This document shows positions 96 through 19,302 of a DNA stretch of 64,000 nt, piece by piece. Below the pieces are notes generated by a model. That model was not told where the DNA came from. It did not search any database and saw only the letters and a program-made list of their open reading frames with translations. The position numbers and the translations under genes were made by a program. Origin of the DNA: a virus (Duplodnaviria > Caudoviricetes); the IMG/VR virus record IMGVR_UViG_3300025934_000014, positions 32,001 through 96,000 of that record. One strand, 5' to 3'. Position 1 is the first letter of the stretch. Each line of letters begins with the position of its first letter.

Positions 96-422
96 ATGGC
101 AGGGCAGCTACGCAGGAACGACATTGGCTCCATCATCCGCGTGCGCGTGCGCGAGGAAGGCTTGCCGTTCAACGCGGCAGCGGCGACGACGAAAACGCTC
201 AAGCTGCAAAAGCCGAGTGGCAGCGTGGTCGCCCGGCCAGCGGAGTTTGAAACCAACGGCACCGACGGCGTGTTCACCTACACCACCGTGAAGGATGACC
301 TCAACGAGTCGGGTCCGTGGTCGGGGCAAATCTTCATGGAGTTCCCGACCGGCCAGTGGCACACCGATGCGTTCAACTTCCATGTGGGCGAGAACCTTGA
401 GCTAGTGGTCACGGTACCGTGA
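96..422 (+). CDS. BppU-like Ig-fold virion protein (108 aa)
   Basis: Pattern D-x-G...QKPSG...GTDGVFTYTT..DDLNESGPWSGQ resembles BppU N-terminal domains; stop overlaps next GTG (GTGA 419-422). Confidence 0.55.
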   Translation: MAGQLRRNDIGSIIRVRVREEGLPFNAAAATTKTLKLQKPSGSVVARPAEFETNGTDGVFTYTTVKDDLNESGPWSGQIFMEFPTGQWHTDAFNFHVGENLELVVTVP

Positions 423-3400
423 GCGCCGCGCCTGCGCCCCAGCGGGACGCCGTGCCCGGCTTGCAGGCACTGGATCGTCTGCCCACGACCTCGACGGCCT
501 CGATTCCGCTGGCGGTGCGAGCCGCCGACGTGTTCAAGGCAGCGGTGACGCCGCTGAAGGTACCGCTCAACCGCAAGACCACCCAGAACGTGGTACAGCC
601 CGTGCGGCTCGACACGCTGGAGCCGACACGAGAACTGCTGCCCGTGGCCGGGTTGTCGGCGTACGTCGTGAAGCCTCGGCGCGATCCGCCGGACGTGGCG
701 CACGTGGTGATGCGGAGCGGACGCGACCGCTGGGTCATTCAGGAGGGGCACACACGACTGGGCGCGGCCGTCCTGCGCGGCGATGAGACGCTCCCGGCGC
801 GGGTGTGGGAGTTCGAGCAGGCGGACACCGGCGACCTCGTGCCGGTGCTCCGAGGGCTGCACCGGCGCGGCGTCCAGTTGACGCTGCGGGACGCGAAGCC
901 CGGTCTGCATCCCGACTGGCAACTGGGCGAGACGGGGCTGACGCGGCAGATCACGTTCCCGAACCTCCGGGCGTGCGCGACGTTCATCTCGTCGCTGATG
1001 GACGCGGCGAACGACGCGAATCACCACCCCGACGTGCAGAACGACAACTGCGACGTGACGGTCACGTTCATCACCCACGCGACCGGGACCGTGACGGCGA
1101 AGGACTACGCCGGGGCTGAGGAGGCCGACCGGCTCGCAGGCGAAGCCCTGACGGTGCTCTCGGGCGATGACCTCGCGGTGCTGCTGCTCGACTGGCATGA
1201 GGAGTTGCCGAACGGGCGGGACAATGGTAGTATAGACCTCGGCGGTCCCGGCAGCGGAAACTTCGGGCATGCCGGACGGCCCGGCGAAGTGGGTGGGTCG
1301 GCGGATGGTGGCGGCGGCGGCGGAGACACAGTCAGCACGGTTCCTCTGCGCGAGCCGACGCCGCACGAATTCATCGAGGCGCGGAACAAGTCCTCGCGGA
1401 TGGCGTTCCTGTCACCCTTGACCCCGGACGATCTGAAGGGCCAGAAGCTGTACCTGTCGAAGGACGGGACGGTCGGCGGGGCCATGACGCCGGGCGGGGA
1501 CATGGGGAACCTGTTCAACAACGACGGGCCGTCCGGCGCGGCACGCGAAGTGTTGCTCCAGATGATCGCGGATGGGGGCACGACGGCCGACGCGTACGAC
1601 GGGTATCTGCCGTTGCTGTACACCCAGTTCGGGTTGCACGAAACCGGACGCATGGCGTTCAACCCGGAGTACGCGCCGAAGGATTGGAACTACGAGAAGG
1701 ACGATCATCCGGACGTGATCTTCCTCGCACTGGATCAGCACGCCCAGTCGGTCGATGAGATCCGGGAGCGACTGGCGGACGAGTTCCTGTGGCAGACGCC
1801 GAATGAACCGGGAGATAACTACTATGACGACTACGACCAAGGGAAACGAGACGCCACCGCCATCGCCAGCAAGCACGCCATCATCCGACGAAAAGACGCT
1901 GCCGCCAAGCGCACAGAGTCCGGAGGAAAGACGTTTCTTAGCGAAGCTGGAGCGGCTCAAGGGAGCCGACTGGGTCGCGAAGCATGGCGGGTTGGCGCTG
2001 CGGGAGGCGCGAGCACTGGGCGAGATTTAACCTACCGGGACAGGCTCGCACTGCTACTGGGCGACCTTCCCGGTCACGAGTTCCACGGCAACCAGTGGAC
2101 GGATGCGTACCCGGCCGCGTCACGCGACTACCGCATCGAGCCGGTCAAGGGCGACAAGCGTGCCTGCTGCGATCCCGGCGGCGTCAAGACGAAGCTGACC
2201 AAGCCGGAGCAGGGCGCGATTGGCGAGGCCATCGTCGCGGAGTACCTCACCCAGCAGGAGAAGGACCGCGTCTACGCGTCCAACGTCGGGCAACCCAACT
2301 TCCCCATCGACCTCGTCTCGATCAACGACGACGGCAGCGGCGAGGTCATCGAGGTCAAGGCTGGGAGCGCCGGAAACACCACTGGCGCACAGCAGTGGCG
2401 GCTGACCATCGGAGAGCCGGGCAAGGCCGAGAAGGCCATGCTGGCGGATATGTCCGAGGCGGACAAGGCTCGCTGGAACGACAGCAAGGAAGAACAGATT
2501 CTCGTCCGCAAGGAACGGGCGACGAAGCAAATCTCCAAGAACATCGGTCGCCCGGTCAAGGGGCGCACGCTGACGGTGATTCTCAACCCCGACACGCATC
2601 GCGCCGACGTGTACGAGTTCGACGGCTTCCACCAGCGCATCGGCTGGAACAGCGAGGAAGCGAAGGCTGGCTACCGGGGCACGTTCACGTACCGCCAGAA
2701 GCCAGCGGCGCAGCGGAAGGCGGAAGCGACCATCGCCGCACGCCAGTGGTTCGTGCTGTCAGCCGACAAGCCGGACACGTGGACATTCGTGCCGCCGCCC
2801 GGCCTTAACGTACCGCCCGAGGTCGTCGCGGAAGTGCAGCGCGACATCGAGCGCGAGGCGCGACGGTACGAAGCCTCGCTCACCCAGATGTTCCTGAAGA
2901 AATCGGAGACGCATCTCGGGGATGTGCCGGGCCACGAGTTTCACGGGAACCAGTACAGCGAGGGCACGACGGCGCACGCGCCGGGCAAGTCGGTCCAGTT
3001 GCCCGGTCGGTACGACAAGACGAAGGTCGAGAAGCACTCGATCATTGTCACGTCGAAGCACGGCTACATCGCCGCGACGAAGTCGTCCTCGGATCCGGAC
3101 TACTACTGGGTGAACCACATCCGGGTGGACAGCAAGGCCCGAGGCAAGGGTGAGGGCACGGCGCTGTACATCGCGGCGCTCAAGGAAGCGCAGAAGCGCG
3201 GCGGCAAGGGCATCCTGAACGGCGTCCTGCCGGGCCGTGACATCTCCGACGACGCCAAGCGCGTCTGGGCGTCCCTCACGCGCAAGGGACTGACGGAGCC
3301 GATTACGGCGCACGTTCAGAGCGAGGGCAAGGACATCGCGTTCGAGTCTGTCGTGCTCGTGCGATCTGAGCCGAAGGCCACGCACGCATCGACCGCGTGG

Positions 3401-6400
3401 CATCTCGGGGACGTGCCCGGTCATGACTTCCACGGGAATCAGTGGACGCATGAAGGTGGACGCGGCACGCCGCACGGGGCCAAGAAATCGACCAGCGCGG
3501 ATGGCTCCACGGTCGAGAGTTGGTACGACCGGAAATCCCGGTCGTGGATCACGCAGAAGAAGTCGGGCGGCACCGAGGTGGACTCGGAATACAACGGCAC
3601 CAAGGAGGGCATGAACGTCAGTCACGCCACGATGGTGGCGTCGGCGGAGCCTGCGTCGGCGGAGACAGTCACGGACATCCCCGCCGGTGAGAAAGGCGAA
3701 TGCTTCCGCAACGCGGCGCGGTTCGTCCGTCAGCGCGATGGCTACGTGCTTGTCCACGGCAAGGTGACGAACGGCGAGGGGCAGACGTTCGATCACGCGT
3801 GGGCCGAGTCGGCTACGACGGTCGCGGACCCGACCACCGGCGTGGAGATGAACAAGGGCCGGTGGTATGGACTGGTGAAAGCCAAGCCCGAGGCGAAGTA
3901 CACCGCCGAGCACTCGGCCATCAACATGCTGCGAACCCGCAACCACGGGCCGTGGACGGACACGGAGGTCGGTTCGCGCAAGCTGGCGCTCTCCGCGCTG
4001 TATCTCGACTGGGATGAAGGCTCGCATCCGCGTGACGAGAGCGGTCGCTTCGCGGCCGGGTCGGTGTCCGAGTCGATGGCCGCGTTCAAGGCGAAGTATC
4101 CCGAGGTCGCGTCTCGCTACGCACAGCACAGTGGGACAGAGCGCGGCAGCATCGAGGCGCACACGCGCGAGGTGGGCGACACATGGGCGCAGCAACTGAC
4201 GCCCGAGGAGATGTCTGGCATTTCCGCACGGTTCGGGTCCGACGTGGGCAAGCTGATGGCGGCAGCGATTCCGCTGCACGACATCGGGAAGGCCGACGCG
4301 ATTCGCGAGGGCGGGTCACAGCACGAGCACACGATTCCGATTCTGCAACGCGTGCTCCGGCGCGAAGGCTTCGGCGCTCGTGATGTGGCGCTCGCGACCG
4401 AACTGCTGAACCACGACATGATCGGGCCGCTGCTGCGTGCGCATGAGGGCATGCGAGCGACGTACACACCAGAGCAAGTCGCCGCCAAACTGGAAGCGAA
4501 GGCCGAAGCGGTCGGCATGAGTGCGTCCGACTTCGCGACTCTCCAGATGGCGTTCTTCCAAGCGGACGCCTCGTCGTATCCCTTCGTCGCCCGGCAGATG
4601 ACCCGCGAGAAGTCCGGGCGGCACACGTTCGCCGGGTCGAAGGTGCTCGCGCCGATTCACGCGCTGGTGTCGCGGACGATTCGTCTGTCCATCGATCTGG
4701 GCGATCTGCCCGGCCATGAATTCCACGGCAACCAATGGACCGACGGGTCCGGCGTCAGCGGTCGCGAGTTCGCTGGCAACGAGGGCTACGAGTGGCACGA
4801 GCGCCCAGAGATGGAGACGTATGCCCGGAGCTTGCCGCCGCAGGACGTGGAGGCGGTTGGTAATTACGCGGGGTTCTCCTACGCCGATGTGAATCAACTC
4901 CTGCGCGGCACGTTCCAGCCCGACATCGTCAACGAGTTCGTGCGTCCCGCCACGCCCGAGGAGATCGAAGCGTACAAGCCGTCGATGATGTTCCGAAGTG
5001 GTGGCGCGAAGGACTACGAGCCGGACGATCCGACGAACAAGGTGGCTGACGGGCGCATTATTCGTAATGCGTTCACGGTCGATCCTGCCACGGGTGAGAA
5101 AGTCTTTTACAGCATCCAGCGTGCGGTCCCCGATCAGGCACGCATCCGGAATCTGGAAGACATGACGCGGACGATCAACACGATGATTCGTGAGCGAGGG
5201 TACGTTCTTCCAGAGGCGATCACGGTCAATCGTGCGGCCTACGTGCCCGGCCTGTCCTACGACGATCTGAAGGCGATGGAGGGCGGCGTCATGGAGGAGA
5301 AGGGCTTCACCTCCACGATGCTGGGCAATCCCGGCAATCGGCTGGACAGCTACGTGATGGGTGGCAAGTCCGAGAGCCTCTACAAGAGGTACGCGGACAA
5401 GGAAGGCTCGCACGCGATCTACACACGGCAGGACGAGGTCGGTGCGCCGATGCGCATCAAGATCGTTTTGCCTGCTGGCACCAAGGTCGCTCCGGTCGAA
5501 TCGCTGCGGCGGATCGATTACGAGTACCCGAAGATCCAAGACCCGGCGGTGTTCGACCATCCGGAGTGGTTAACGAAGGATGACGGCACGCCGAATGGCC
5601 TGACGGCCAGCGACTACACGAAGACGGACTACACCGCGAAGCCGACCATCAAGACGAATCGGCTGCATGAGACGAACCAACGCAGCGAGGCCGAGATTCT
5701 ACTGGGCAGCGGAGCGCAGTTCCGCGTCGTCAATGTGCAGCGCGGCCCCCGACGCATCACGTCCTCCGATCCGCAGATGAAGGCGCTGGACGTGATCGAC
5801 GTGACGCTGGAATACATCGGCGGCGGCAGCAGCGAGGGGACGCAGAAGAAAGACCTGAGTAGCAAAGTGGAACGCTGTTCCACTTTGCCCTCGCTCGATC
5901 TCGGTGGCCCCGGCAGCGGCAACTTTGGACACGCCGGTCGCCCCGGCGAGATCGGTGGATCGGCCAGCGAGGAATCGAATGCGTCGGCATTCATTCAGCG
6001 CGACACCTTACCGGCCGATGCCGAGGCGCTGGCGACGATTGAAGGCGCTGGTCCGGAGCGGCGGAAGTGGGTCGAGCGGCTGGTGGCCTCACGGAAGGCC
6101 GATGCCGCACTGTACGACGCAGAGGAGGCGCACAAGGCGTCGATCAAACTGGTCGAGCAGCGGTACGGAACGTGGGAGAGCTTGCTGACTCCGTCCGCCA
6201 GCGATGAAGAACTCGGACGACGCGCGGAGGCGCTGGAGGCCAGACGGCGAGCCGACCCGGACTTCCGGGCCACGCTCGACGTGATGGTGGCCGCGTACGA
6301 CGCGAAGGTGGCGGCGGAGAAGGCGTGGAAGGAGCAAGAGTCTCCGATGCGCGTGGAAGTGATCACGAACCTCTCGCACGCCGTGGCAAAGGACATGGGC

Positions 6401-7165
6401 GTCGATCCGTCGATCATTCACGTCGTGGACAAGGAGCCTCGGGCGTTCACGGTGGGCACGAAGGAATTCCGCGAGGGTGGGCACTACGACACGATCACCA
6501 ATCAGATCGAAATCAATGCCCGGAACCTCCCATACGGGGACGTGCCATCAGTTCAAGGCATCGCGGCGCACGAAGCCTCCCATGCGATCTATAACCGGTT
6601 CAAGGACGAACTGAAAGCCGAGGACGAGCGATACAAGGTGCTGTCCGGGCATTACAACGACGAGAAGGGCACGGACTGGTTCTATGAGCGGTTCGACCAG
6701 CCGCACCGGTTCGGGGAGACGACGGTGAAGCCGGGGATGCGCGAACAACTGGCGCGAGAGTTCCCGGCGTCGGCCGTGTGGGCCAACCTTCACGACGGGA
6801 AGATGTTCACGGGCCTCTCGGACAAGATCATCAAGGAGAACGGGCACAGCGCCTACGCGAAGTCGTACTGGACGCCTGACGCCGTGCGCGTGCGGGGGCA
6901 CGGGACGTACGACACGGCGATCAACGAAACCGTGGCCGAGGTCACGCGCTGGCTCGTCGCACCCAAGTCGTGGAATGAAGAACCGGCCAAAGCGTCGGTG
7001 GCCGATGGCAAGATTCGTCTGCAATCGACGGGACTCGGTCCCAAGTCTGCGTGGGTCGCGCTCACCAAGGGCATGCACGCGTGGTACAAAGACCTCCGAA
7101 CCAAAGAGACGGCGGAGTCGGACGCGTACTGGGCGAAGCGCAGGAAAGAGCAGGCGCAGTCATGA
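419..7165 (+). CDS. Polyvalent effector polyprotein 1 (2248 aa): ParB/Srx, pterin-4a-carbinolamine dehydratase, GNAT, PD-(D/E)xK nuclease, GNAT, papain-like, HD, VIP2-like ART, zincin
   Basis: EGHTR (~590-815); NHHPD..THATG..TAKD (~905-1140); DAYDGYLPLLYTQFG..YAP.DW (~1350-1735); GEAIVAEYL..PIDLV..IEVK (~2200-2700); RVDSKARGKGEGTALY (~3040-3290); GECF..HG..HAW..DPT (~3695-3960); LHDIGK..H..HD..AD (~4150-4590); Y..VNQLLRG..NR..GFTST..EAEILL (~4850-5820); HEASH..SAYA..NETVAE (~6350-6960). Modules are separated by repeated tags. Confidence 0.85.
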   Translation: MSAAPAPQRDAVPGLQALDRLPTTSTASIPLAVRAADVFKAAVTPLKVPLNRKTTQNVVQPVRLDTLEPTRELLPVAGLSAYVVKPRRDPPDVAHVVMRSGRDRWVIQEGHTRLGAAVLRGDETLPARVWEFEQADTGDLVPVLRGLHRRGVQLTLRDAKPGLHPDWQLGETGLTRQITFPNLRACATFISSLMDAANDANHHPDVQNDNCDVTVTFITHATGTVTAKDYAGAEEADRLAGEALTVLSGDDLAVLLLDWHEELPNGRDNGSIDLGGPGSGNFGHAGRPGEVGGSADGGGGGGDTVSTVPLREPTPHEFIEARNKSSRMAFLSPLTPDDLKGQKLYLSKDGTVGGAMTPGGDMGNLFNNDGPSGAAREVLLQMIADGGTTADAYDGYLPLLYTQFGLHETGRMAFNPEYAPKDWNYEKDDHPDVIFLALDQHAQSVDEIRERLADEFLWQTPNEPGDNYYDDYDQGKRDATAIASKHAIIRRKDAAAKRTESGGKTFLSEAGAAQGSRLGREAWRVGAAGGASTGRDLTYRDRLALLLGDLPGHEFHGNQWTDAYPAASRDYRIEPVKGDKRACCDPGGVKTKLTKPEQGAIGEAIVAEYLTQQEKDRVYASNVGQPNFPIDLVSINDDGSGEVIEVKAGSAGNTTGAQQWRLTIGEPGKAEKAMLADMSEADKARWNDSKEEQILVRKERATKQISKNIGRPVKGRTLTVILNPDTHRADVYEFDGFHQRIGWNSEEAKAGYRGTFTYRQKPAAQRKAEATIAARQWFVLSADKPDTWTFVPPPGLNVPPEVVAEVQRDIEREARRYEASLTQMFLKKSETHLGDVPGHEFHGNQYSEGTTAHAPGKSVQLPGRYDKTKVEKHSIIVTSKHGYIAATKSSSDPDYYWVNHIRVDSKARGKGEGTALYIAALKEAQKRGGKGILNGVLPGRDISDDAKRVWASLTRKGLTEPITAHVQSEGKDIAFESVVLVRSEPKATHASTAWHLGDVPGHDFHGNQWTHEGGRGTPHGAKKSTSADGSTVESWYDRKSRSWITQKKSGGTEVDSEYNGTKEGMNVSHATMVASAEPASAETVTDIPAGEKGECFRNAARFVRQRDGYVLVHGKVTNGEGQTFDHAWAESATTVADPTTGVEMNKGRWYGLVKAKPEAKYTAEHSAINMLRTRNHGPWTDTEVGSRKLALSALYLDWDEGSHPRDESGRFAAGSVSESMAAFKAKYPEVASRYAQHSGTERGSIEAHTREVGDTWAQQLTPEEMSGISARFGSDVGKLMAAAIPLHDIGKADAIREGGSQHEHTIPILQRVLRREGFGARDVALATELLNHDMIGPLLRAHEGMRATYTPEQVAAKLEAKAEAVGMSASDFATLQMAFFQADASSYPFVARQMTREKSGRHTFAGSKVLAPIHALVSRTIRLSIDLGDLPGHEFHGNQWTDGSGVSGREFAGNEGYEWHERPEMETYARSLPPQDVEAVGNYAGFSYADVNQLLRGTFQPDIVNEFVRPATPEEIEAYKPSMMFRSGGAKDYEPDDPTNKVADGRIIRNAFTVDPATGEKVFYSIQRAVPDQARIRNLEDMTRTINTMIRERGYVLPEAITVNRAAYVPGLSYDDLKAMEGGVMEEKGFTSTMLGNPGNRLDSYVMGGKSESLYKRYADKEGSHAIYTRQDEVGAPMRIKIVLPAGTKVAPVESLRRIDYEYPKIQDPAVFDHPEWLTKDDGTPNGLTASDYTKTDYTAKPTIKTNRLHETNQRSEAEILLGSGAQFRVVNVQRGPRRITSSDPQMKALDVIDVTLEYIGGGSSEGTQKKDLSSKVERCSTLPSLDLGGPGSGNFGHAGRPGEIGGSASEESNASAFIQRDTLPADAEALATIEGAGPERRKWVERLVASRKADAALYDAEEAHKASIKLVEQRYGTWESLLTPSASDEELGRRAEALEARRRADPDFRATLDVMVAAYDAKVAAEKAWKEQESPMRVEVITNLSHAVAKDMGVDPSIIHVVDKEPRAFTVGTKEFREGGHYDTITNQIEINARNLPYGDVPSVQGIAAHEASHAIYNRFKDELKAEDERYKVLSGHYNDEKGTDWFYERFDQPHRFGETTVKPGMREQLAREFPASAVWANLHDGKMFTGLSDKIIKENGHSAYAKSYWTPDAVRVRGHGTYDTAINETVAEVTRWLVAPKSWNEEPAKASVADGKIRLQSTGLGPKSAWVALTKGMHAWYKDLRTKETAESDAYWAKRRKEQAQS
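1205..1233 (+). promoter_or_regulatory. sigma70-like promoter inside polyprotein 1
   Basis: TTGCCG-17 nt-TAGTAT with TG at the extended -10 position; locally AT-rich in GC-rich coding DNA. Confidence 0.45.
1824..2030 (+). CDS. Nested out-of-frame small protein (68 aa), candidate partner/inhibitor of the adjacent GNAT
   Basis: GGAG 1811-1814, ATG 1824, TAA 2028-2030; protein-like C-terminus ERRFLAKLERLKGADWVAKHGGLALREARALGEI lies over a low-complexity linker of the host frame. Confidence 0.55.
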   Translation: MTTTTKGNETPPPSPASTPSSDEKTLPPSAQSPEERRFLAKLERLKGADWVAKHGGLALREARALGEI

Positions 7166-10672: not shown

Positions 10673-13600
10673 TGAACATCGACGCCAAACTCTCGAACGC
10701 CGACTGGCCCAAGCGCACGCCCGACCGCTTCCCTGCCCGTCGTGTGCATCTGGGCGGAGCCGGGTCCGGTAACTTCGGGCACGCGGGTCGGCCGGGTGAG
10801 ATTGGCGGATCCGCCGAGGGCGATGGCGAGGGCAGCTACAGCAAGAAAAGCGTCAAGGGCAAGAACATCGTCCGGGTGGACGATGAAGCGAACGATGCCG
10901 TCGTGTCGAACGTGCTGGGGCTGCACTCCGAAGCGGCCGTGCGTGACTTGGCCGAGTCGATGGTGCAGTACGCCGATCAGGAGAAGTTCGCGGTCACGAT
11001 CATGACCGAGGGCGGCGGTCCCGACGAGGAGGAACTCCGCGAGAGCTATGACGAGTACGTCGAGCAGTCGCGCCGGGAAGCCCGGAACGACTGGGTGGCC
11101 GAGCGTCGAGATCGCGCGGCCGAGATCGACACGCTCTGGGAGTCGATGAAGGCCGAGGCCGAGGAGGCCCGGCGCACGGGTCCGTATGGTGATACGCGCG
11201 AGATCCCGACGCTGCCGCTAGGCGAAGGCGAAGCCTTCCAGCCGGGCGACACGGCCGAGAAGATCGAGTACGAGGATCTCGTGGAGGGGCTGGATCCGTC
11301 GGCCCCGTGGTCCGAGGACGAGAAGGCCATCCTGCGCGAGCGCCTGATGCAGACGGGTGGTCCCGTGCAGAAGTCCATCAACCAGATGCGCAGCGAGTGG
11401 GACGAGGGCGTCGGGCAGGACTTTGAACCCAACGACTCCTTTCACGAGTGGAGCGCGGAGCAAGACGACAGCAATTACAGCGGCGAAGAAGTAGTGCGCA
11501 TCAAGTTTGCCGGATCCGCTGGCACGCAGATTACCCGCGAGTTCAAGCGCGATGGGAACGGCGAACTGGTCGTGGATCACAGCTACTTCCAAGCGGGGAA
11601 CACGGGCGGTGGCCTCGCGAAGGATCTCCTACGTGCGAGCTTTGACGAGTACGAGCGCATGGGCGTGGACAAGGTCACGGTCCACGCGAACATCGACGTG
11701 GGTGGCTACGCGTGGGCGAAGTTCGGCTTCAAGGTCGATGACGACGAGCACGGCGGACCTGATGTCGATAGCCTGATCGCTCGTGCCGAGCGCCGGGGCA
11801 TGATCACGCACGAGGAGCGGCTTCAGTTAGAGGACATTGCCACCGAGACGGACGGCGAGGACACGCAACTCTGGGCGATTGCGGATGCGACGAGCGAGGG
11901 CAAGAAGATCGGGTCGGCCGTGTTGCTGGGCAGCGACTGGTACGGACAAATCCGCCTCAAGGACAAGGAGGCGATGAACCGGTTGCACAAGTATCTCTCG
12001 GCATCGAAACCCGAGAAGGCGCTCCCTAAGAAACCCGCGCCAGCGCCAGTGCCAGTGACTGGAAAGCCTGAAGACAAACTCGCGGCGAAAGCAGGGGCGC
12101 TCACGGCGGAGCGTCGTCGGCTGATTGATACTGCGCGTGGCACGGCGGCTGAGGACGCGCGGTTGCGCGAGATCGATACCGAACTTCGGCGGCTGCAACG
12201 CGAGGCCCAGCGCGTCGTGCGTCCGTCGAACCAGAAAGCGAAGGAGACGGTCGCACAACGCGAACGACGCAAGCGTGAACGCGCCGACGTGCTGGCCGAG
12301 CAGAAAGAGCGGAACGCGAATCGGAAGCGACTGGGATTATCACCCATCAACTTTGCCGATGACCCGCCGACGCCCCCAACCGATCCGCCGACGCCTGATG
12401 CGCCGAGGCCGGGCAGTCGCGAGATGTTTTACGAGGAAGCCGACGGCACGCGTGCCGACCGCGACCTGTGGCGCGATCTGCTGGGCGAGGACTTCCCTGA
12501 CGACCTTCCACCGAAGCCGACCTCGCTGTACCGCGACAAGCTCCGGTCGATGCAACTGGAGTGGGACGAGGGCGAGCATCCGCGTGACGCACGCGGCCAG
12601 TTCGAGGACTCACACTCGCCGGGTGAGGCGCTGCATTCCCTGCTGGACGGCCACAAGACCAACATCGATCCACATCACGTCCGGGCGCTGCTGAAGAAGG
12701 CGCTCAAGCAGGGACTGGACGCGGATCTCACCGATCTGCACGTCAACGGGCATCTCATCTTCGGCGGCAACGGACTGGGCATCGCGCGAGCGGACATGCC
12801 GCAGATTCCGCCCGAGCATCGCGAGCCGTTCCTCCAGTCACTGCGGGACGCTGGCGTCACGGTGACGCGGGAGATGGTGAACCCGCTGACGCTCGCGCCC
12901 TCACAGAAAGAAATCTCCGCACGCCGCGCCGCCGAGAAGCTGGACAAACTCGAAACCAAGGGCAAGCCGTTCAAGCCGGTCTTGGTGTCACAGGGGAACC
13001 GCGTGCTCGACGGGCATCACCACTGGGCCGCAGCCGCCGCGCTGGCGCTGGAGCACCCAGAGATGAAGGTGCCGATCTATCGCATCAAGCTGCCGACGCG
13101 CCGGGCGCTGGCGAAGATGCACACGTACGACAAGACGCACGGCATTGAGCGCGTGGCGTTGTCGGCCATCGAGAGCGACGAGGTGACGGCGCATGAACAA
13201 GTGCTCCTGCTCGACTGGGACGAGAGCCTGCACCCACGCGCCGACGACGGCGAGTTCACCGATGGCTCCGGCGGCGGGAGCAATGCGTCTCCGTACGCGG
13301 TGTCGGAGGATGCACCTAGAGGCGGCGAAGGCCAGCAGGCGCTGTTCGAGTACCAGCCCGAGGCCGGGAGCGAAACCGCGCTGAAGATCGAAGCATCGAA
13401 GGGAATCGCGGCCATTGAGAAGCTCCTGCCAGACGCGATTGACGATGCGGACTATAAGGTCGCGGTCAAGTCGTGGGACGAACTGGACTCCGACGATCAG
13501 AACTCGGCCGAGGAGTCCTACATTGACGACATCATCAATGACAGCGGCCCGTCAGAGGCCGGGCAGGAAGCCTCCGACGCATACGTGAGCGAGCACCTCA

Positions 13601-14967
13601 ACGAGTCTGATATTCACGAGAAGATGATCGAGGACGGGTTCGCGGAAGACTTCGTGGGGCTGGACGAGCGGCGCGACCTTGATCCGAACGCGTACGGCGA
13701 TGCGTACGGCGATGCGAAGGAGGCGCTGACCAATAAGTTGCGGGACAGCGATGGCGCGATGGAAGCCTACTCGGACGCGTCTCGCGAGTACGCGCAGAAC
13801 GACTGGAATGAATTGAGTTCCAGTGAGCAGTTCGATTACGCCAAGGACCACGGCTTCGCGACCGGAGCCAACCTGCGGCCGGGCGCACCGGACACGTGGG
13901 TGTGGGACAGCGACCGCGAGGAGGACGAACCCGAGAGCGAGGACTACCTCCGCACACGGGTCATCGCGAATGAACTGGTGACGGAGCGCACCACTGCGCT
14001 CATGAAAGAGCGCGGCCTCCCCACGGAGCCGGGTACCCCGACACCGGAATTCATCAGTCAGCAGTTGTGGGACGCATGGAAAAGCGACTCCCAGTCCTCA
14101 CTGGGGTACGCGATGCAGATCGCCGTGTCAGAGGAACTGGGCACGCATTCGACGCCCTCGATCACGTCGGCCGAGCGCGAGGCCGCAGAGAAGGCGATGA
14201 TCGACACGTTCACGACGAAAGCGGAACGGCAGGCGATGAGTCCCGAGGCGCTGGGGATCATCAAGGAGATCGACAAGCTCCCCGCCGACCAGCGCACGGA
14301 CGCCCTCAATCGGGCCATTGAGGCGCAGCAGGCTGGCAAGGGAGCCATCCTCAAACTGGCGAAGGATCGCGTGAAAGCCTACGTACGCGGCCAGTGGGAG
14401 ACGACCCAGTTCCTGCTGCATCAGGCCGACACGTTGCGTGTGCCGGTGTATCGCGCCATCGTGCGCCCCCGCGACGAACTCGATCAGACGCGTCACGTGG
14501 ATCTGGAAGCCGGAACGAAGCTCCCGGATTATCAACTCCGGCAGAATGCGGCAGCGTCGGCCACGACGAAGCGTCAGGTCGCCAACGAGTGGAACGGCGT
14601 CAGTGTGCGCCTCGATCCGAACAAGTCGCAGCGGGTGGTCCTGCGCTTCGACGCGCCGCGCACGGCGGTCTTCTCGCTGCCGGTGTACGGGCAGAATGTC
14701 TACAACGAGTCCGAGGTCGTGCTGATGGGCACGAAGGGCTTGAAGTGGGACGCGTGGCTCAAGGAAGGTCCGGAGTTCAAGGAGCAGCGGATCGACATGG
14801 CTCGCTTCAAGGTGGAGATCGAGATGGACGAAACGCCGAAGCCGCCGCCGCCCCCGGCGAAGAAGGGTCCAGTGATTGACCTCCTGAAGGATCAGGAGAA
14901 GCACTGGCTGCACCCGGACCACTACAAGTTCAAGACGCGGAAGCCGAAGAAGCCCGAGGCGAAGTGA
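10669..14967 (+). CDS. Polyvalent protein 4 (1432 aa): GNAT, ParB/Srx, acidic region, R-S-E ART
   Basis: GGGLAK..ANIDVGGYAWAKFGF (~11520-12000); RADMPQI..PSQKEI..VLDGHHHWAA (~12720-13140); VYRA..ASATT..NESEVVLMG (~14060-14760), paralogous to the second ART of 8615-10672. Confidence 0.85.
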   Translation: MMNIDAKLSNADWPKRTPDRFPARRVHLGGAGSGNFGHAGRPGEIGGSAEGDGEGSYSKKSVKGKNIVRVDDEANDAVVSNVLGLHSEAAVRDLAESMVQYADQEKFAVTIMTEGGGPDEEELRESYDEYVEQSRREARNDWVAERRDRAAEIDTLWESMKAEAEEARRTGPYGDTREIPTLPLGEGEAFQPGDTAEKIEYEDLVEGLDPSAPWSEDEKAILRERLMQTGGPVQKSINQMRSEWDEGVGQDFEPNDSFHEWSAEQDDSNYSGEEVVRIKFAGSAGTQITREFKRDGNGELVVDHSYFQAGNTGGGLAKDLLRASFDEYERMGVDKVTVHANIDVGGYAWAKFGFKVDDDEHGGPDVDSLIARAERRGMITHEERLQLEDIATETDGEDTQLWAIADATSEGKKIGSAVLLGSDWYGQIRLKDKEAMNRLHKYLSASKPEKALPKKPAPAPVPVTGKPEDKLAAKAGALTAERRRLIDTARGTAAEDARLREIDTELRRLQREAQRVVRPSNQKAKETVAQRERRKRERADVLAEQKERNANRKRLGLSPINFADDPPTPPTDPPTPDAPRPGSREMFYEEADGTRADRDLWRDLLGEDFPDDLPPKPTSLYRDKLRSMQLEWDEGEHPRDARGQFEDSHSPGEALHSLLDGHKTNIDPHHVRALLKKALKQGLDADLTDLHVNGHLIFGGNGLGIARADMPQIPPEHREPFLQSLRDAGVTVTREMVNPLTLAPSQKEISARRAAEKLDKLETKGKPFKPVLVSQGNRVLDGHHHWAAAAALALEHPEMKVPIYRIKLPTRRALAKMHTYDKTHGIERVALSAIESDEVTAHEQVLLLDWDESLHPRADDGEFTDGSGGGSNASPYAVSEDAPRGGEGQQALFEYQPEAGSETALKIEASKGIAAIEKLLPDAIDDADYKVAVKSWDELDSDDQNSAEESYIDDIINDSGPSEAGQEASDAYVSEHLNESDIHEKMIEDGFAEDFVGLDERRDLDPNAYGDAYGDAKEALTNKLRDSDGAMEAYSDASREYAQNDWNELSSSEQFDYAKDHGFATGANLRPGAPDTWVWDSDREEDEPESEDYLRTRVIANELVTERTTALMKERGLPTEPGTPTPEFISQQLWDAWKSDSQSSLGYAMQIAVSEELGTHSTPSITSAEREAAEKAMIDTFTTKAERQAMSPEALGIIKEIDKLPADQRTDALNRAIEAQQAGKGAILKLAKDRVKAYVRGQWETTQFLLHQADTLRVPVYRAIVRPRDELDQTRHVDLEAGTKLPDYQLRQNAAASATTKRQVANEWNGVSVRLDPNKSQRVVLRFDAPRTAVFSLPVYGQNVYNESEVVLMGTKGLKWDAWLKEGPEFKEQRIDMARFKVEIEMDETPKPPPPPAKKGPVIDLLKDQEKHWLHPDHYKFKTRKPKKPEAK

Positions 14968-16241
14968 TGCCCAGTCTCCAGCGCGACCAGATCGACGGCC
15001 GGTGGGCCACCATCGCGTACCTCCACGACGACGCACTGGTGGACCCCGACCGCGCGACGACGGCGATTGCGAAGTTCGACAACGGCGAGGTCATCCTGCT
15101 CGCGGTCACGCAGGAGCGGTCGCTGGCGCTCCCCGTGGGCGAGGTGATTACCATGCCGTTCGCGGACTACGAAGACTTCGCGGACTGCGTCGAGAAGAAT
15201 CAGGACAAGGACGACCCGAAGGCGTTCTGCGGCTGGCTGAAGCATCGCATCGAAGGGTCGGACCCGCCGCCGGTGGACCTGAGTTACCGGGACAAGCTCG
15301 CCCTGACACTGGCGGTCGCGAACTATGATAGTATAGATGCACGTCACCTTGAGTGGGACGAGGGGCAACACCCGCGTGCGGATGACGGGAAGTTCAGCGA
15401 AGGAGACGGCAGCAATGGCGGACACGCCGACGGACAACCGCAAGGATCGGGAACTGACGGAGGAGGAGGAAGATCGGTATCCGCCCCCGCCGCCAAAACG
15501 CACGCCCGTCCCGGAGCCGACCCCGCCGCCACGCGCGTAGCGGACAGCTACAACGAGCAGCACGGACTCCCGCCGGTCGATCACAGCACCTACGCAGAGG
15601 TTGACCAGCCGCGTGCGCGGAGCATTGCCGACGCGTACGACGCGCTGCCGGTCAACGACCAAGACAACCCCAAGGTCAAGGAAGCCTACGCCGCGCTGAG
15701 CACGGAGATTCAACAGCAGTGGGACCACATCGTCGCCAGCGGCATGACGTTGGAGCCGTGGACACAAGAGGGTCAGCCCTATCAGACCTCGACCGAGATG
15801 GTCGCGGACGTGAAGAACAACAAGCACATGTACTTCTACACGGGTGGCGAGCCGCACCCGTTGATCGGGGCGAAGTCGAAGGACAAGTCCGGGCTGTCCC
15901 TGAACGAGAAGTTCCGCGCCGTCCATGACTACTTCGGTCACGCCGCAGGCGGGTACGGCTTCGGGCCGCGTGGCGAGGAGAACGCGTGGCGCTCGCACTC
16001 GCAGATGCTGACGATGCCAGCGCGGCGTGCGTTGACGACGGAGACGCGCGGCCAGAATTCGTGGGTCAACTTCGGACGCCAGAACTACGAGGCCGACGGC
16101 ACGCACAAGAACCTGCCGCCCGGCGAGCGCCCGTTCGCCGCGCAGAAGGTGGCGCTCCTGCCGGACGAGTATGTGCTGATGCCCGGTGAGCAGCCGAAGT
16201 CGCTGTCGGCGTATCGCCAGCGGCTGCTGGGGGTCATGTGA
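14964..16241 (+). CDS. Polyvalent protein 5: IDGR domain, PFADY..DCV..C mini-domain, tags D+C, HDxxGH putative metalloenzyme
   Basis: FRAVHDYFGH..FGPRGEENAW..TETRGQNSWVNFG (~15915-16080); GTGA overlap. Confidence 0.75.
   Translation: MMPSLQRDQIDGRWATIAYLHDDALVDPDRATTAIAKFDNGEVILLAVTQERSLALPVGEVITMPFADYEDFADCVEKNQDKDDPKAFCGWLKHRIEGSDPPPVDLSYRDKLALTLAVANYDSIDARHLEWDEGQHPRADDGKFSEGDGSNGGHADGQPQGSGTDGGGGRSVSAPAAKTHARPGADPAATRVADSYNEQHGLPPVDHSTYAEVDQPRARSIADAYDALPVNDQDNPKVKEAYAALSTEIQQQWDHIVASGMTLEPWTQEGQPYQTSTEMVADVKNNKHMYFYTGGEPHPLIGAKSKDKSGLSLNEKFRAVHDYFGHAAGGYGFGPRGEENAWRSHSQMLTMPARRALTTETRGQNSWVNFGRQNYEADGTHKNLPPGERPFAAQKVALLPDEYVLMPGEQPKSLSAYRQRLLGVM
15415..15540 (+). CDS. Nested out-of-frame small acidic/Pro-rich peptide (41 aa)
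   Basis: AGGAG 15401-15405, ATG 15415, TAG 15538-15540; TG-a-TAGTAT extended -10 at 15326-15334 upstream. Confidence 0.4.
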   Translation: MADTPTDNRKDRELTEEEEDRYPPPPPKRTPVPEPTPPPRA

Positions 16242-16894
16242 TCGCCTACCGCGAGAAGCTCGCCGTGCTCGCGCTGGGAGATGTCGAAGGGCATCCCTTT
16301 CGCGGCAACCAGTGGACGGATGGCGAGGGCGGCGGCACCGATGGCGAGCACTGGGCGTGGGGCGACACGGGGACCAAGAGCGCCATCCGCATATACACGC
16401 AGGGCAACGCCCGGTACATGAACGAACTGCTGCGCGTGACGGCGAAACGGGCGCGAGGAGAGACGGTCACGGGGCGGTTCAGTACTGGCCCGTACGCGAA
16501 AGCAGTTCCCGACGCCGATGCGGTACGGCTACTCGATGCGCACATGCGAAAGAATCCATTTCCCGAGGACACGACGCTCACGCGCACGGTGTCCAACTTC
16601 GTCGTGAAGGGATTGGATGTTGGGGATGTGTACCAAGACGACGGCTACGCGTCCACCACGTCAGACGCAGGCATGCTCGATCAGATCCGCGCCGACATCG
16701 GCGTGAGCATGCCGTCCTACCAGACGAAGCTGACCGTGCTGGCCCCCAAGGGGCTGGGGCGCATCGACGTGAACAAGGAGATCGGCACGGACCACGAATA
16801 CTCCCATCAGCACGAAGTCATCCTGCCGCGTGGCCTCCGGTACAAGGTCGTCAGCAAGGGTCCGAACGAAATGACCGTACAGGTGCTCCAGTGA
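16238..16894 (+). CDS. Tagged VIP2/C3-like ADP-ribosyltransferase
   Basis: Tags D+B, then IYT..MNELLR..LTR..GYASTT..HQHEVILPRG (R-STT-QxE). Confidence 0.85.
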   Translation: MIAYREKLAVLALGDVEGHPFRGNQWTDGEGGGTDGEHWAWGDTGTKSAIRIYTQGNARYMNELLRVTAKRARGETVTGRFSTGPYAKAVPDADAVRLLDAHMRKNPFPEDTTLTRTVSNFVVKGLDVGDVYQDDGYASTTSDAGMLDQIRADIGVSMPSYQTKLTVLAPKGLGRIDVNKEIGTDHEYSHQHEVILPRGLRYKVVSKGPNEMTVQVLQ

Positions 16895-19302
16895 GAGACG
16901 CCCACGCCGACCGATTCGCGTTGAAGGCTGGTGACTTCGTCATCGTCTCCAAGGCGAAGAAGGCGCTGAGCGCGGACCCGTTCCTCCTCGGGGATACCGA
17001 GGGGCATCCGTTTCGCGGGAACCAGTACACCAACGCGGGTGAACACGTCGAGGTCGAGGGCCGGTCGATCAAGGTCACGCACAGTGCTCGCGCTCGACGC
17101 GCTGGCGACGTGCTCGTGCCCGTGGACATGGCGAAGTTCGATGCCGCATGGAAGCAGGACACCGGCTTCCACATCGACCCGTCAGGCACCGGCGCGATTC
17201 ACGGGCGGCTGGAGCGCATTGCGGACTTCCTGAAGACCTCGCCGCAGATGGACGCCGCCGAGGTCAACGTCGATGCCGATGGCCGCGTCGGCTTCACGAA
17301 CGGGCGTCACCGCATGGCCTACCTGCGCGACAAGGGCGTGACGCGGGTGCCGGTGTCGATGACGAAGGAGTCGCGAGCGAACGCGAAGAAGCATGGGCTG
17401 ATCGCCGCCGAGCGCACGGACCTCCGTGGGCTGTTCCAGTTGTACAGCGATGACCAGCCGCGCGATGAGCAGGGCCGGTTCGCGGAGACGGGTTCGTCGC
17501 CGTACGCGGCCGAGCCGCGCGTGTTCAATACCGACGATGACCTGATCTCGGAACGGAACTGGGGCAAGGACCAGTGGGTCTGGAAGGACAAGAAAACCGG
17601 CAAGGGGTCCGGGATGCTGCTGACCGGCGAACCGATCCCGCGTGCGCAGCTACCGACGGAGTTGTACCACGTCACGACGAACGCGCCAGCGGTCGAGGCC
17701 AGCGGCGTGCTCTTGGGTCAGCGATCCGATGCCGGGCTTGGCGGCGGGCAGGCTGACGGCGTGTCGTTCACCTCGTCCAAAGAGGACGCACGGGTCATCC
17801 AGCGCGAACTGGTGCGCAGCGTGAAGATCGCCCGAGGCGACGACGACGGCATGGACGCTATCGCGCAGTACGCGCGTGAGGACGAGAAGGAGGCGGGACT
17901 GCCGCCGGGCACGCTCGACCACGCCGTGGAGTTCGCCCGGAGCGGCTGGGATGCGGGAGCGCAGTCGCGCACGGCCACCTTCACGGACGGGGCGTATCAC
18001 GACGACATTCCGCTGCCGAAGGACGAGCAGGCCCGGTTGCGTCGGAGCAGCACGAAGGATGCGTTGAACGCGTACCTTCAGATTCGCGGCCACCATGACG
18101 ACACGCATCCGATCCTGAAGAACCCGATCCTGTTTGGCCGTCAAGAGAAGCTCGCGAAGATCGACCCCGACTCGATCAAGACACTGACGATCCCGACGAA
18201 GAACATCCCGGCCAAGGCGCTGGTCACAACCGGGTCCGACAAGTTCCTGCATGAGGTCCGGGCGTACGCGGACGTACCGGCCGGTGGTGCGACTGCGACG
18301 AAGCTGTACCGGGACAAGCTCGTGTCGATTATCAATCTGCCCGACATCAGTGACGTGTCGTTCCCGTCGATGGTCGGGGCGATCCCGTCGAAGCCACCCA
18401 AGCGGAAACGGACGCGCACGCTCTACAAGGGCGTGAGCCTGAGCCGACGGCCGATGAAGTTCGAGGCCAAGGTGCTGTCGCTGACGGAGATCCCCCGGCG
18501 ACTCGACGCGTGCCGCGACACGCTGCTGGGTTGTGACGAGGACCGCTGGCGCGACACGCTGCACGATCTCGCCGCGTACGGCGCGAGCGAAGTGCTGATG
18601 GAACTGGTGCGGCAGGGCGCACCGGCGCGGCTGGGCACGCGCGAGATCCCGGTCGATGTGGACGGCATCTGCGCGGCGGTGCTGGCTGACCGGGCACGGG
18701 CGCTCACCAGCCTGCGCGAGGACTACGAGGCGCGGCTCCGGCGGCGACGGATCGGGGCCGACCGGCGCGAGGCGCTCACCCGGTCGTTCACGGATCGGCG
18801 CTCGCCGTCGCTGCTGAAGCGGTTCGCCAGCCGGGCGACCAACGAAGCGTTCGCGCTGGGTCGCTCGACGGCGATGCAGGCGCTCCGGCGCTCGCGCATC
18901 CCGCTGGAGTTTGAACTGGCCTACCGGGACGAGAACGGCAAGTTCATCAGCAAGGCCGAGGCCGTGGCCGGGGGCGAGGCCATCGTGGACGCGGTCATCC
19001 AGACGGCGGTCATGGACACGGGCACGTGCGATGAGTGCGCTGAGGTCGATGGCGAGTCGATGGAACTGGGCAGCGACCGGCAGGAGGAACTGCGCCCACC
19101 CTACGTGAAGTGCCTCGGCGGGGATGCCTGCCGGTGCGTCCAGATCGCGCTCCTCTCCGACGGCAGCGAAATCGACGTGGACGAAATTGACGAGGACACG
19201 CTGGGCGACCACGAGAGCGACAAGCCGAGTAAGCCGAGCACGAAGGCCGCGCCCGAGGCCGACACGGCCGATACCGGCGACGAGAGTGATAGCGAGGATT
19301 GA
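16891..19302 (+). CDS. Polyvalent protein with C-terminal MuF (Mu gpF/SPP1 gp7-like) domain; also ParB/Srx and possible ART-like domain
   Basis: GTG start at 16891 (GTGA overlap); FTNGRHRMAYLRDKG; LYHVTT..GVSFT..E; C-terminal NEAFALGR..AVMDTGTCDEC..DG..PP..C.GG..CRC; lies just before the protease. Confidence 0.8.
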   Translation: MRDAHADRFALKAGDFVIVSKAKKALSADPFLLGDTEGHPFRGNQYTNAGEHVEVEGRSIKVTHSARARRAGDVLVPVDMAKFDAAWKQDTGFHIDPSGTGAIHGRLERIADFLKTSPQMDAAEVNVDADGRVGFTNGRHRMAYLRDKGVTRVPVSMTKESRANAKKHGLIAAERTDLRGLFQLYSDDQPRDEQGRFAETGSSPYAAEPRVFNTDDDLISERNWGKDQWVWKDKKTGKGSGMLLTGEPIPRAQLPTELYHVTTNAPAVEASGVLLGQRSDAGLGGGQADGVSFTSSKEDARVIQRELVRSVKIARGDDDGMDAIAQYAREDEKEAGLPPGTLDHAVEFARSGWDAGAQSRTATFTDGAYHDDIPLPKDEQARLRRSSTKDALNAYLQIRGHHDDTHPILKNPILFGRQEKLAKIDPDSIKTLTIPTKNIPAKALVTTGSDKFLHEVRAYADVPAGGATATKLYRDKLVSIINLPDISDVSFPSMVGAIPSKPPKRKRTRTLYKGVSLSRRPMKFEAKVLSLTEIPRRLDACRDTLLGCDEDRWRDTLHDLAAYGASEVLMELVRQGAPARLGTREIPVDVDGICAAVLADRARALTSLREDYEARLRRRRIGADRREALTRSFTDRRSPSLLKRFASRATNEAFALGRSTAMQALRRSRIPLEFELAYRDENGKFISKAEAVAGGEAIVDAVIQTAVMDTGTCDECAEVDGESMELGSDRQEELRPPYVKCLGGDACRCVQIALLSDGSEIDVDEIDEDTLGDHESDKPSKPSTKAAPEADTADTGDESDSED

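What the first reader, a model, noticed from the sequence alone, without database searches (positions are those of the whole stretch)
419..19302. 19-kb MuF-linked arsenal of about 20 effector domains built as tag-separated polyproteins
Seen: seven large genes plus one small gene, all coupled by ATGA/GTGA/TGATG overlaps, directly upstream of the prohead protease. Nearly every enzyme module is preceded by tag A (x5), B (x7) or C (x5), conserved at peptide level with synonymous DNA divergence. Established: MuF fusions and phage polyvalent proteins carry ART, GNAT, zincin, ParB and REase domains thought to be injected with the DNA. Inference: here only the last gene has MuF, and the tags replace it as a general loading/ejection address, making a modular plug-in system for host takeover or anti-defence.
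Basis: partly seen in the sequence, partly recalled or inferred. Interest (0 to 1): 0.88.

Follow-up and report, generated by a model that had tools for sequence, protein, structure and literature searches.

The report
Tag-punctuated phage head-cargo polyproteins
A 122-kb uncultured phage devotes about 19 kb between its portal and its capsid protease to chains of enzymes, each headed by one of three short conserved peptides; these peptides recur in thousands of phage proteins and most likely mark where the capsid protease cuts packaged enzymes apart.

Summary
Seven coupled genes plus two small ones (419-19646) encode about 24 modules, with tags A x5, B x7 and C x5 exactly as counted. The system is larger than reported: outside the window, the Mu-like portal carries tag C and the next gene carries tag B.

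The proteins are phage polyvalent proteins, a known kind. About half the modules have HMM support: ARTs, GNAT, a pterin dehydratase-like domain, HD, a NERD-like nuclease, a ParB/PFIN-like domain and a divergent MuF.

I found no description of the tags in Pfam, NCBIfam, PHROGs or the papers I could read. They are widespread: at least 1991 (A), 245 (B) and 31 (C) protein clusters, often fused to MuF, portal or head-protease domains.

- A and B swap at orthologous junctions.
- AlphaFold2 gives low confidence for tags A and C.
- The residue just before a tag is constant within a phage and differs between phages. It is Leu with a Mu-like protease and Lys with XkdF-like proteases; other phages use Asn, Glu, Phe, Ala or Arg.

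My best reading is that the head protease cuts just before each tag. Whether the tag also addresses cargo to the head is open, and no cleavage or packaging has been measured. This scan has noted similar tags in at least eight other genomes.

The parts
419..7165 (+). g1, a 2248-aa polyprotein of about 9 modules: a possible ParB-like N-terminus (by eye only, no HMM hit), Pterin_4a-like, a domain like one fused to Microbacterium-phage MuF-type minor capsid proteins and annotated acetyltransferase in Streptomyces phages, NERD/PD-(D/E)xK-like nuclease, GNAT, a Cys/His module, HD, ART, and an HExxH module
7162..8388 (+). g2: a 48-aa N-terminal beta domain, a YREKL helix, tag A, then an HExxH (zincin-like) module
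8385..8615 (+). small 76-aa gene without a tag and with no family match
8615..10672 (+). g3: leader, tag B, ART-PolyVal (PF18760, E 2.3e-19), tag A, DRAT-like ART
10669..14967 (+). g4, 1432 aa: tag A, a GNAT-like module, a basic coiled region, tag C, a domain matching phrog_2859 (read by eye as ParB-like), tag C, an acidic region and an ART-like module
14964..16241 (+). g5: N-terminal beta domain, a Cys mini-domain, a YRDKL helix, tag C, then a confident 230-aa domain with no fold match found
16238..16894 (+). g6: a 13-aa YREKL leader, tag B, ADP-ribosyltransferase
16891..19302 (+). g7: leader, tag B, a PFIN/ParB-like module, degenerate tag C, an unknown module, and a divergent MuF domain at the C-terminus
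19299..19646 (+). g8, a small 115-aa gene without a tag
19937..21805 (+). Mu-like prohead protease fused to scaffold; the C-terminus ends ...AYRERFASADA
22541..23467 (+). major head protein (family phrog_1005, assigned through its ortholog)
1238..1300 (+). tag A copy 1 (L-GGxGSGNFGHAGRPGExGGS)
5900..5962 (+). tag A copy 2; the orthologous junction in relative L004 carries tag B
7381..7443 (+). tag A copy 3; AlphaFold2 confidence below 50 (pLDDT)
9704..9766 (+). tag A copy 4; relatives L002 and L004 carry tag B at this junction
10750..10812 (+). tag A copy 5
2057..2101 (+). tag B copy 1 (L-GDxxGHxFxGNQ[WY]T)
2915..2959 (+). tag B copy 2; relative L002 has a different module after this tag
3404..3448 (+). 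tag B copy 3
4697..4741 (+). tag B copy 4
8717..8761 (+). tag B copy 5
16274..16318 (+). tag B copy 6
16987..17031 (+). tag B copy 7
4004..4051 (+). tag C copy 1 (L-[DE]WDExxHPRxxxGxF)
12556..12603 (+). tag C copy 2
13210..13257 (+). tag C copy 3; in relative L002 the gene ends at this point
15348..15395 (+). tag C copy 4; AlphaFold2 confidence 27-36 (pLDDT)
17434..17481 (+). tag C copy 5, degenerate; it heads a cassette that relative L003 lacks

Best explanation
This is a head-module cargo system of phage polyvalent proteins.

Shown:
- About 24 modules, many of them host-modifying enzymes, are encoded as translationally coupled polyproteins between the portal and the prohead protease.
- Each module is headed by one of three conserved peptides that AlphaFold2 leaves at low confidence.
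- The tags are interchangeable at orthologous junctions and are widespread in phages.
- The residue just before the tag is fixed within a phage and tracks the phage's prohead-protease family.

Inferred:
- The polyproteins enter the procapsid through their MuF or portal parts, or through lineage-specific leaders that resemble the scaffold C-terminus.
- The prohead protease then cuts after the P3-x-P1 residues (hydrophobic-x-Leu in this phage), just before each tag.
- This frees enzyme-sized modules that keep the tag and its glycine-rich linker as a new N-terminal handle, and the modules leave the capsid with the DNA.

What the conserved handle binds is unknown. Candidates are the prime side of the protease site, DNA, or the exit channel.
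For: Head context:
- Mu-type portal (PF06074, 124 bits) and Mu-like protease (PF10123, 105.7 bits) flank the array.
- The g7 C-terminus is a divergent MuF. Of 86 homologs, 38 hit PF04233 and 23 are portal fusions.
- The same layout, portal then a 20-30 kb tag array then the major head protein, occurs in independent contigs.

The tags are linear motifs rather than parts of folds:
- They precede unrelated folds.
- AlphaFold2 confidence (pLDDT) is below 50 at tags A and C while flanking domains are confident.
- Tags A and B swap at orthologous junctions.

Peptide-level selection: 110 synonymous against 23 non-synonymous codon differences.

Tags occur inside portal and MuF fusions, where an address is redundant.

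The residue before the tag:
- It is Leu in 18 of 19 tags in this genome.
- Across 198 proteins the commonest residue at that position accounts for 0.88 of tags within a protein, against 0.55 when shuffled (maximum 0.58 in 500 shuffles). Classes seen are [VI]xK, xxL, Rx[AL], xEF, hxE, hxN and xxR.
- It is Lys in 98 of 101 tags in the ten contigs with an XkdF-type S78_2 protease over the family cut-off, and Leu in 40 of 40 tags in contigs with Mu-like_Pro.
- Tag-headed genes far from the head module in G009 use the same Lys as its main array.

Natural N-terminal leaders before a tag are at least about 11 residues long and never zero, as in T4 capsid-targeting sequences.
Against: - No cleavage, packaging or ejection has been measured, and no cultured phage with these tags was found.
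- A protease site needs only a few residues, so cutting alone does not explain 15-20 conserved residues on the prime side.
- The link between the pre-tag residue and protease family rests on one Mu-like lineage and perhaps four or five S78_2 lineages. These are related contigs, not independent trials.
- Copies within a genome may share flanking residues partly by descent.
- Near-complete contigs G018 and G030 carry tag B but matched none of the four protease families tried on them: PF10123, PF04586, PF00574 and PF01343. Neither matched PF14550.
- The array also encodes HExxH modules and a Cys/His module, which could do the cutting instead.
Confidence: 0.55

Rival explanations
1. The tags are capsid-loading or ejection addresses. 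Each module needs its own tag to be loaded, held or threaded out, and cutting is not required. This overlaps the best explanation, since a tag could be both.
For: - Small single-domain genes with an N-terminal leader plus tag B lie far from the head genes in a complete 121-kb phage. A signal acting in trans would explain this.
- The tags are conserved well beyond what a cut site needs.
- T4 capsid-targeting sequences are a precedent (from my own knowledge; see also the papers listed).
Against: - Tags sit inside portal and MuF fusions that already reach the capsid.
- One address per polyprotein would be enough, yet every junction has a tag.
- The core tags are shared by contigs with two different protease families (Mu-like_Pro and S78_2), though the contigs with mapped head genes have the same portal (phrog_113) and major head (phrog_1005) families. 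The lineage-specific parts are the leader and the residues before the tag.
Confidence: 0.2
2. Processing is done by peptidases encoded in the array itself (the HExxH modules of g1 and g2, or the Cys/His module), or the tags cut themselves. The prohead protease is not involved.
For: - Iyer et al. 2017 predicted self-processing of polyvalent proteins by zincin-like metallopeptidase domains (PMC5512222).
- Both HExxH modules here follow a tag A.
Against: - Relatives of the g1 HExxH module appear in only 7 of about 70 tag-bearing loci, and no peptidase module is shared by all arrays at BLAST level.
- The HExxH modules have only weak HMM support and a poor model.
- The pre-tag residue follows the prohead-protease family.
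- No known self-cleaving motif matches the tags (my own comparison, by eye).
Confidence: 0.1
3. The tags act after delivery, in the host cell. They would be a shared peptide that binds a conserved host factor or DNA, or that places each enzyme.
For: - Conserved His, Arg, Asn, Gln and aromatic residues, and a GRP core in tag A, would suit nucleic-acid or partner binding.
- Conservation does not depend on capsid lineage.
Against: - The phages come from very different environments and hosts (MAG hits span Verrucomicrobiota, Acidobacteriota and Actinomycetota), so a shared host protein partner is unlikely.
- This does not explain the lineage-specific residues before the tag.
Confidence: 0.1
4. The tags are only flexible joints kept as recombination handles for shuffling cassettes, with no biochemical recognition.
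For: Cassettes are exchanged exactly at tags. Junction motifs in polymorphic toxins are a precedent (PMC3482391).
Against: - Recombination handles need DNA identity, but copies differ mostly at synonymous sites.
- Near-invariant residues persist across thousands of divergent clusters.
- Tags also head single-domain genes.
Confidence: 0.05

Closest known systems
Phage-type polyvalent proteins (Iyer, Burroughs, Anand, de Souza, Aravind 2017, PMC5512222)
   Same: Giant multi-enzyme proteins with ART-PolyVal, GNAT, ParB-like, HExxH and MuF parts, encoded among late/head genes and predicted to be packaged and injected.
   Different: The text of that paper has no mention of linkers or of conserved junction peptides. 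Here every module is headed by one of three interchangeable tags, with a lineage-specific residue in front.
MuF- and portal-fused effectors / MuF polymorphic toxins (Zhang 2012, PMC3482391; Jamet 2017, PMC5576092; Iyer 2022, PMC9503650)
   Same: Effector domains fused to MuF or portal so that they travel in the capsid. Here g7 carries MuF and the portal carries a tagged C-terminal module.
   Different: Classical MuF fusions have one C-terminal toxin and no tag. Microbacterium phage Caron gp4, for example, has none. Here most cargo is in polyproteins that lack MuF.
T4 internal proteins and Alt, with capsid-targeting sequences cut by the gp21 prohead protease (from my own knowledge; reviews listed)
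   Same: A short N-terminal leader, then a hydrophobic-x-P1 site, then cargo. Some cargo genes lie away from the head genes. Some lineages here even use hydrophobic-x-Glu before the tag.
   Different: T4 has no conserved peptide after the cut site and no polyproteins. Cutting is proven in T4 and not here.
Junction motifs of polymorphic toxins (VENN in CdiA, DPxGL in Rhs; from my own knowledge, background in PMC3482391)
   Same: A conserved short peptide marks the border where variable toxin cassettes are swapped, and in Rhs it is also the cut site.
   Different: Those are bacterial secretion systems with one junction per protein and unrelated sequence motifs.
Viral polyproteins cut by a virus-encoded protease (general knowledge)
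   Same: Many functional units are made as one chain and released at recurring sites matched to the virus's own protease.
   Different: Those are replication and structural proteins of RNA viruses, not capsid-borne accessory enzymes of a tailed phage.

Membership tests
Phage polyvalent proteins (Iyer et al. 2017) | Two or more unrelated effector or enzymatic domains in one polypeptide | tested here: met
   g1 holds Pterin_4a (5e-15), GNAT, NERD-like, HD and ART matches. g3 holds ART-PolyVal (2.3e-19) and a DRAT-like ART.
Phage polyvalent proteins (Iyer et al. 2017) | Encoded by a phage or conjugative element, among virion/late genes | tested here: met
   A single 122-kb virus contig. The array lies between the portal and the prohead protease and major head protein.
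Phage polyvalent proteins (Iyer et al. 2017) | Zincin-like metallopeptidase module | tested here: inconclusive
   HExxH motifs are present in g1 and g2. The best HMM E-value is 0.25 and the g2 model has a mean pLDDT of 51.
Phage polyvalent proteins (Iyer et al. 2017) | Packaged in the virion and delivered with the DNA | not testable with these tools
   Needs virion proteomics or infection assays.
MuF / SPP1 gp7 head morphogenesis family (PF04233, TIGR01641) | Direct profile match over the curated cut-off | tested here: inconclusive
   PF04233 scores 15.8 bits (cut-off 29.6, E 0.024) and TIGR01641 has E 0.066, both at the g7 C-terminus.
MuF / SPP1 gp7 head morphogenesis family (PF04233, TIGR01641) | Homology to recognised members, and a position in the head module | tested here: met
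   249 homologs were found. Of 86 scanned, 38 hit PF04233 (best 5e-8) and 23 are Portal_Mu fusions. The Cys motif is conserved.
Mu-like prohead protease I (PF10123) | Profile match over the cut-off, placed upstream of the major head protein | tested here: met
   105.7 bits against a cut-off of 25.2. The head protein lies downstream.
T4-type capsid-targeting-sequence cargo | An N-terminal leader ending in a protease site, removed in the prohead | not testable with these tools
   Leaders of 11-80 residues ending in a lineage-specific hydrophobic-x-P1 are seen. Their removal is unmeasured.
Junction motifs of polymorphic toxins (VENN/Rhs type) | A conserved peptide at the border of exchanged cassettes | tested here: met
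   Different downstream modules follow the same tag, and a cassette insertion/deletion starts at a tag. The tag sequences are unrelated to VENN or DPxGL, so this is an analogy, not membership.

The most novel reading that the evidence does not exclude
Tailed phages share an undescribed, sequence-readable cargo code with two parts. The first is a short site tuned to each phage's own prohead protease (Leu, Lys, Asn, Glu, Phe, Ala or Arg before the tag). The second is one of a few near-universal handle peptides that stay on the N-terminus of every released enzyme and serve in holding it or in its exit with the DNA. Lineage-specific leaders that copy the scaffold C-terminus would do the loading. 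If so, injected proteins could be predicted from sequence alone, and foreign cargo could be loaded into capsids by design.
Probability: 0.4. Interest if true: 0.88.

Novelty: new variant of a known kind. Interest (0 to 1): 0.76.

Why it matters
Which proteins a phage injects with its DNA is known for only a handful of model phages. It matters for host takeover and for counter-defence.

A peptide code that marks such cargo would make the injected arsenal of uncultured phages readable from sequence. It recurs in thousands of protein clusters and carries a residue matched to the phage's own protease.

It would also give a directly testable rule for prohead-protease specificity across families. 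It would explain how effector cassettes are exchanged between phages. And it would offer a handle for loading chosen proteins into capsids.

Tried and rejected
- **Domain libraries.** Pfam, NCBIfam and PHROGs scans of the tags alone and of the whole proteins found no family covering a tag.
- **Literature.** Full-text searches for motif strings and topic words found nothing. Iyer 2017, Iyer 2022 and Zhang 2012 do not describe the tags.
- **Cultured phages.** tblastn of the tags and of g1 gave only chance-level hits, plus one shared acetyltransferase-like domain. Microbacterium phage Caron's MuF-type minor capsid protein has no tag. This is a weak test for such short motifs.
- **Protease families in near-complete tag-B contigs.** PF04586, PF00574 and PF01343 gave no match, and PF10123 matched only the two close relatives. 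PF03420 matched nothing anywhere, controls included, so it says nothing.
- **Logan and JGI metagenome loci.** They could not be searched beyond 10 kb, so protease families for the Asn, Glu, Phe and Ala classes remain unknown.
- **An array-encoded processing peptidase shared by all arrays.** Rejected at BLAST level.
- **PDB sequence search.** Only the pterin dehydratase-like part matched. A weak alphavirus nsP2 hit (E 0.11) lies downstream of the Cys/His residues I picked out by eye, so I dropped it.
- **Fold searches for the confident g5 domain.** Foldseek found nothing at E <= 0.001, and VIA-align gave at most Z 4 for the whole 425-residue model, mostly on the small N-terminal domain. This is inconclusive and does not show a new fold.
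- **The g2 model.** It is too poor to test the zincin fold.
Full report
**What is there**

The window is bases 32001-96000 of a single 122,115-bp virus contig with 65% G+C. From 419 to 19646 there are nine + strand genes. Each starts on or just inside the stop codon of the one before, through an ATGA, GTGA or TGATG overlap.

- Tag A, L-GGxGSGNFGHAGRPGExGGS, five copies.
- Tag B, L-GDxxGHxFxGNQ[WY]T, seven copies.
- Tag C, L-[DE]WDExxHPRxxxGxF, five copies, one of them degenerate.

None occurs elsewhere in the window.

The copies are kept as peptides, not as DNA repeats. Tag A is 90% identical in protein and 77% in DNA, with 110 synonymous against 23 non-synonymous codon differences.

The system extends beyond the finding. 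Upstream of the window, the Mu-type portal (PF06074, 124 bits; phrog_113) has a low-complexity extension, then tag C, then a small C-terminal module. The next gene has tag B and then a domain that matches phrog_2859, the same family as the g4 module after its first tag C; I read both as ParB-like by eye.

Downstream lie a Mu-like protease fused to scaffold (PF10123, 105.7 bits) and the major head protein.

**The modules**

Cutting the proteins at the tags gives about 24 modules.

| Module | Gene | Support |
|---|---|---|
| Pterin_4a-like | g1 | 5e-15 |
| ART-PolyVal | g3 | 2.3e-19 |
| ADPrib_exo_Tox ART | g1, g6 | about 1e-7 each |
| DRAT-like ART | g3 | 0.003 |
| GNAT | g1 | 5.5e-4 |
| NERD/NOV_C nuclease-like | g1 | 0.002-0.006 |
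| HD | g1 | 0.005 |
| PFIN/ParB-like | g7 | 7e-6 |

The rest have no annotation.

The g7 C-terminus matches MuF profiles only weakly (PF04233 E 0.024; TIGR01641 E 0.066). It has 249 homologs among 1.84 billion representative proteins. Of 86 scanned, 38 hit PF04233 and 23 are fused to Mu-type portals. I therefore accept it as a divergent MuF.

'About 20 effector domains' is a fair module count, but enzyme identity is supported for only about half.

**The tags are widespread and, as far as I could find, undescribed**

Many of these proteins carry several copies.

Domains in the same proteins include ARTs, GNAT, Zeta-toxin-like kinases, NUDIX, 2H phosphoesterases, PI3K-like kinases, topoisomerase I and ParB. 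The proteins are repeatedly fused to MuF (PF04233), to portals of three families (PF06074, PF04860, PF06381) and to XkdF-type head protease (PF14550).

Counts in the nucleotide collections:
- In IMG/VR, 227 stretches in 67 loci carry tag B, with up to 18 tags in 20 kb.
- In 185,579 prokaryote genomes only 11 loci appeared, all on MAG contigs, most of them short. The tags therefore appear largely confined to phages and are rare in sequenced cell genomes.

No Pfam, NCBIfam or PHROG family covers a tag, and the key papers do not mention them. I found no cultured phage with them, though BLAST is weak for such short motifs.

**Head linkage**

- Where the same portal family is present (G008, G009, G011, G013, G014, G028), the tag array begins just downstream of the portal.
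- In the complete 121-kb contig G009 the portal and the major head protein are 28 kb apart with the array between them, as here.
- Other lineages have the array next to the large terminase.
- Linkage is not absolute. G009 has a second site, about 65 kb or more from its head genes. Small genes there, on both strands, each start with a 28-38-residue leader and tag B. Many lineages have such single-domain genes, often with an MSNPF...LL leader.

**What the tags are not**

They are not parts of the flanking folds.
- They precede unrelated folds.
- AlphaFold2 gives pLDDT 27-36 at tag C of g5 and below 50 at tag A of g2, while neighbouring domains are confident.
- At orthologous junctions with conserved flanks, this phage has tag A where relatives have tag B.

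Cassettes are exchanged at tags. Relatives have other modules after the same tag, and g7 holds an extra cassette (tag C + domain + YRDKL helix) that a 94%-identical relative lacks.

Hybrid forms (KGGxGSG...GHxFxGNQ) suggest that A and B are variants of one motif.

**The clue to mechanism**

The three residues before a tag are uniform within a protein and differ between phages.
- In this genome the residue before the tag is Leu in 18 of 19 cases, across all three tag types.
- Across 198 proteins with three or more tags, the commonest residue at that position within a protein accounts for 0.88 of tags. Shuffling gives 0.55, with a maximum of 0.58 in 500 shuffles. The position two further back is also enriched and is usually hydrophobic.
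- The classes are [VI]-x-K, x-x-L, R-x-[AL], x-E-F, hydrophobic-x-E, hydrophobic-x-N and x-x-R.
- Of 22 proteins with two or more tag types, 19 use the same residue before each type.
- The ten contigs with an XkdF-type S78_2 protease over the family cut-off have Lys before 98 of 101 tags. Contigs with the Mu-like protease have Leu before 40 of 40.
- The distant tag-headed genes of G009 use the same Lys as its main array.

An alternating P3/P1 pattern that is tuned per phage and follows the protease family is what a cut site looks like. From memory, Ala, Glu and Lys are known P1 residues of proteases of this clan: herpesvirus assemblin, T4 gp21 and HK97 gp4.

I therefore place the cut just before the tag, which leaves the tag on the new N-terminus.

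Caveats:
- The contigs are related.
- The Mu-like class is one lineage.
- Nothing has been measured.

**Loading**

Two points argue that the tag is not simply a replacement address.
- Tags inside portal and MuF fusions need no address.
- One tag per polyprotein would be enough for loading.

In this lineage a Y-R-[DE]-[KR]-L helix often precedes the tag. It also ends g5. It resembles the scaffold C-terminus...AYRERF....

In Lys-class lineages with a homologous head protein, the scaffold ends ...SNP[DE]LY.AY... and cargo leaders start MSNPF. This hints that lineage-specific leaders copy the scaffold's capsid-binding end. It rests on two lineages and short motifs, so it is only a lead.

g2 and g5 also share a confident 48-residue N-terminal beta domain.

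**Verdict**

- The kind of protein is known (polyvalent proteins; MuF and portal fusions).
- The tag system looks new to the literature I could reach, and it is general.
- Best reading, at 0.55: packaged polyproteins are cut by the prohead protease just before each tag. The function of the conserved handle remains open.

Earlier notes of this scan report similar tags in at least eight other genomes with similar readings. I treat those as leads, not evidence.

Noticed in passing
L001:11399-18256 (genome 24399-31256, just upstream of the window): Between the portal/tag-B gene and g1 lie a 1479-aa collagen-repeat protein (PF01391, 1e-54) and an 804-aa fn3 protein. Then come three small genes, the last of which ends at window 422. 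Fibre-like genes inside a head module are unusual and may be head fibres or decoration.
   Followed up: partly
window 7162-7305 and 14964-15107: g2 and g5 start with a homologous 48-residue beta domain (33% identity, pairwise E 1e-4; pLDDT 77-88 in g2). The g4 equivalents in close relatives begin with it too. Its fold matches only generic small beta-barrels (Z at most 4). It may be a loading or partner-binding domain.
   Followed up: partly
window 15141-15269 (g5 residues 60-102): A Cys-containing mini-domain (FADxxDCV...AFCGWL) also sits at or near the N-terminus of many homologs of the g7 MuF domain.
   Followed up: no
window 21760-21802 and the YR[DE][KR]L sites before tags (for example 2033, 7357, 8693, 16212, 16247, 18307): The scaffold C-terminus (AYRERF) resembles the helix before many tags. 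In Lys-class relatives the scaffold ends SNP[DE]LY.AY... and cargo leaders begin MSNPF. This may be mimicry of the scaffold's capsid-binding end.
   Followed up: partly
L042 (contig of G009, 7955-28041): A complete 121-kb relative has a second cluster of small, divergently oriented genes. Each has a 28-38-residue leader plus tag B and lies far from the head module, next to an HNH endonuclease gene.
   Followed up: partly
L036, L052, L055 (for example rows): Hybrid tags of the form KGGxGSG(2-5 residues)GHxFxGNQ join the first half of tag A to the second half of tag B. This suggests the two tags share an origin.
   Followed up: partly
window 15507-16190 (g5 residues 182-409): This domain is confidently modelled (pLDDT about 85-95) and conserved in at least 12 loci. 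It has an invariant HDxxGH motif and no fold match in the searches run. Its function is unknown.
   Followed up: partly
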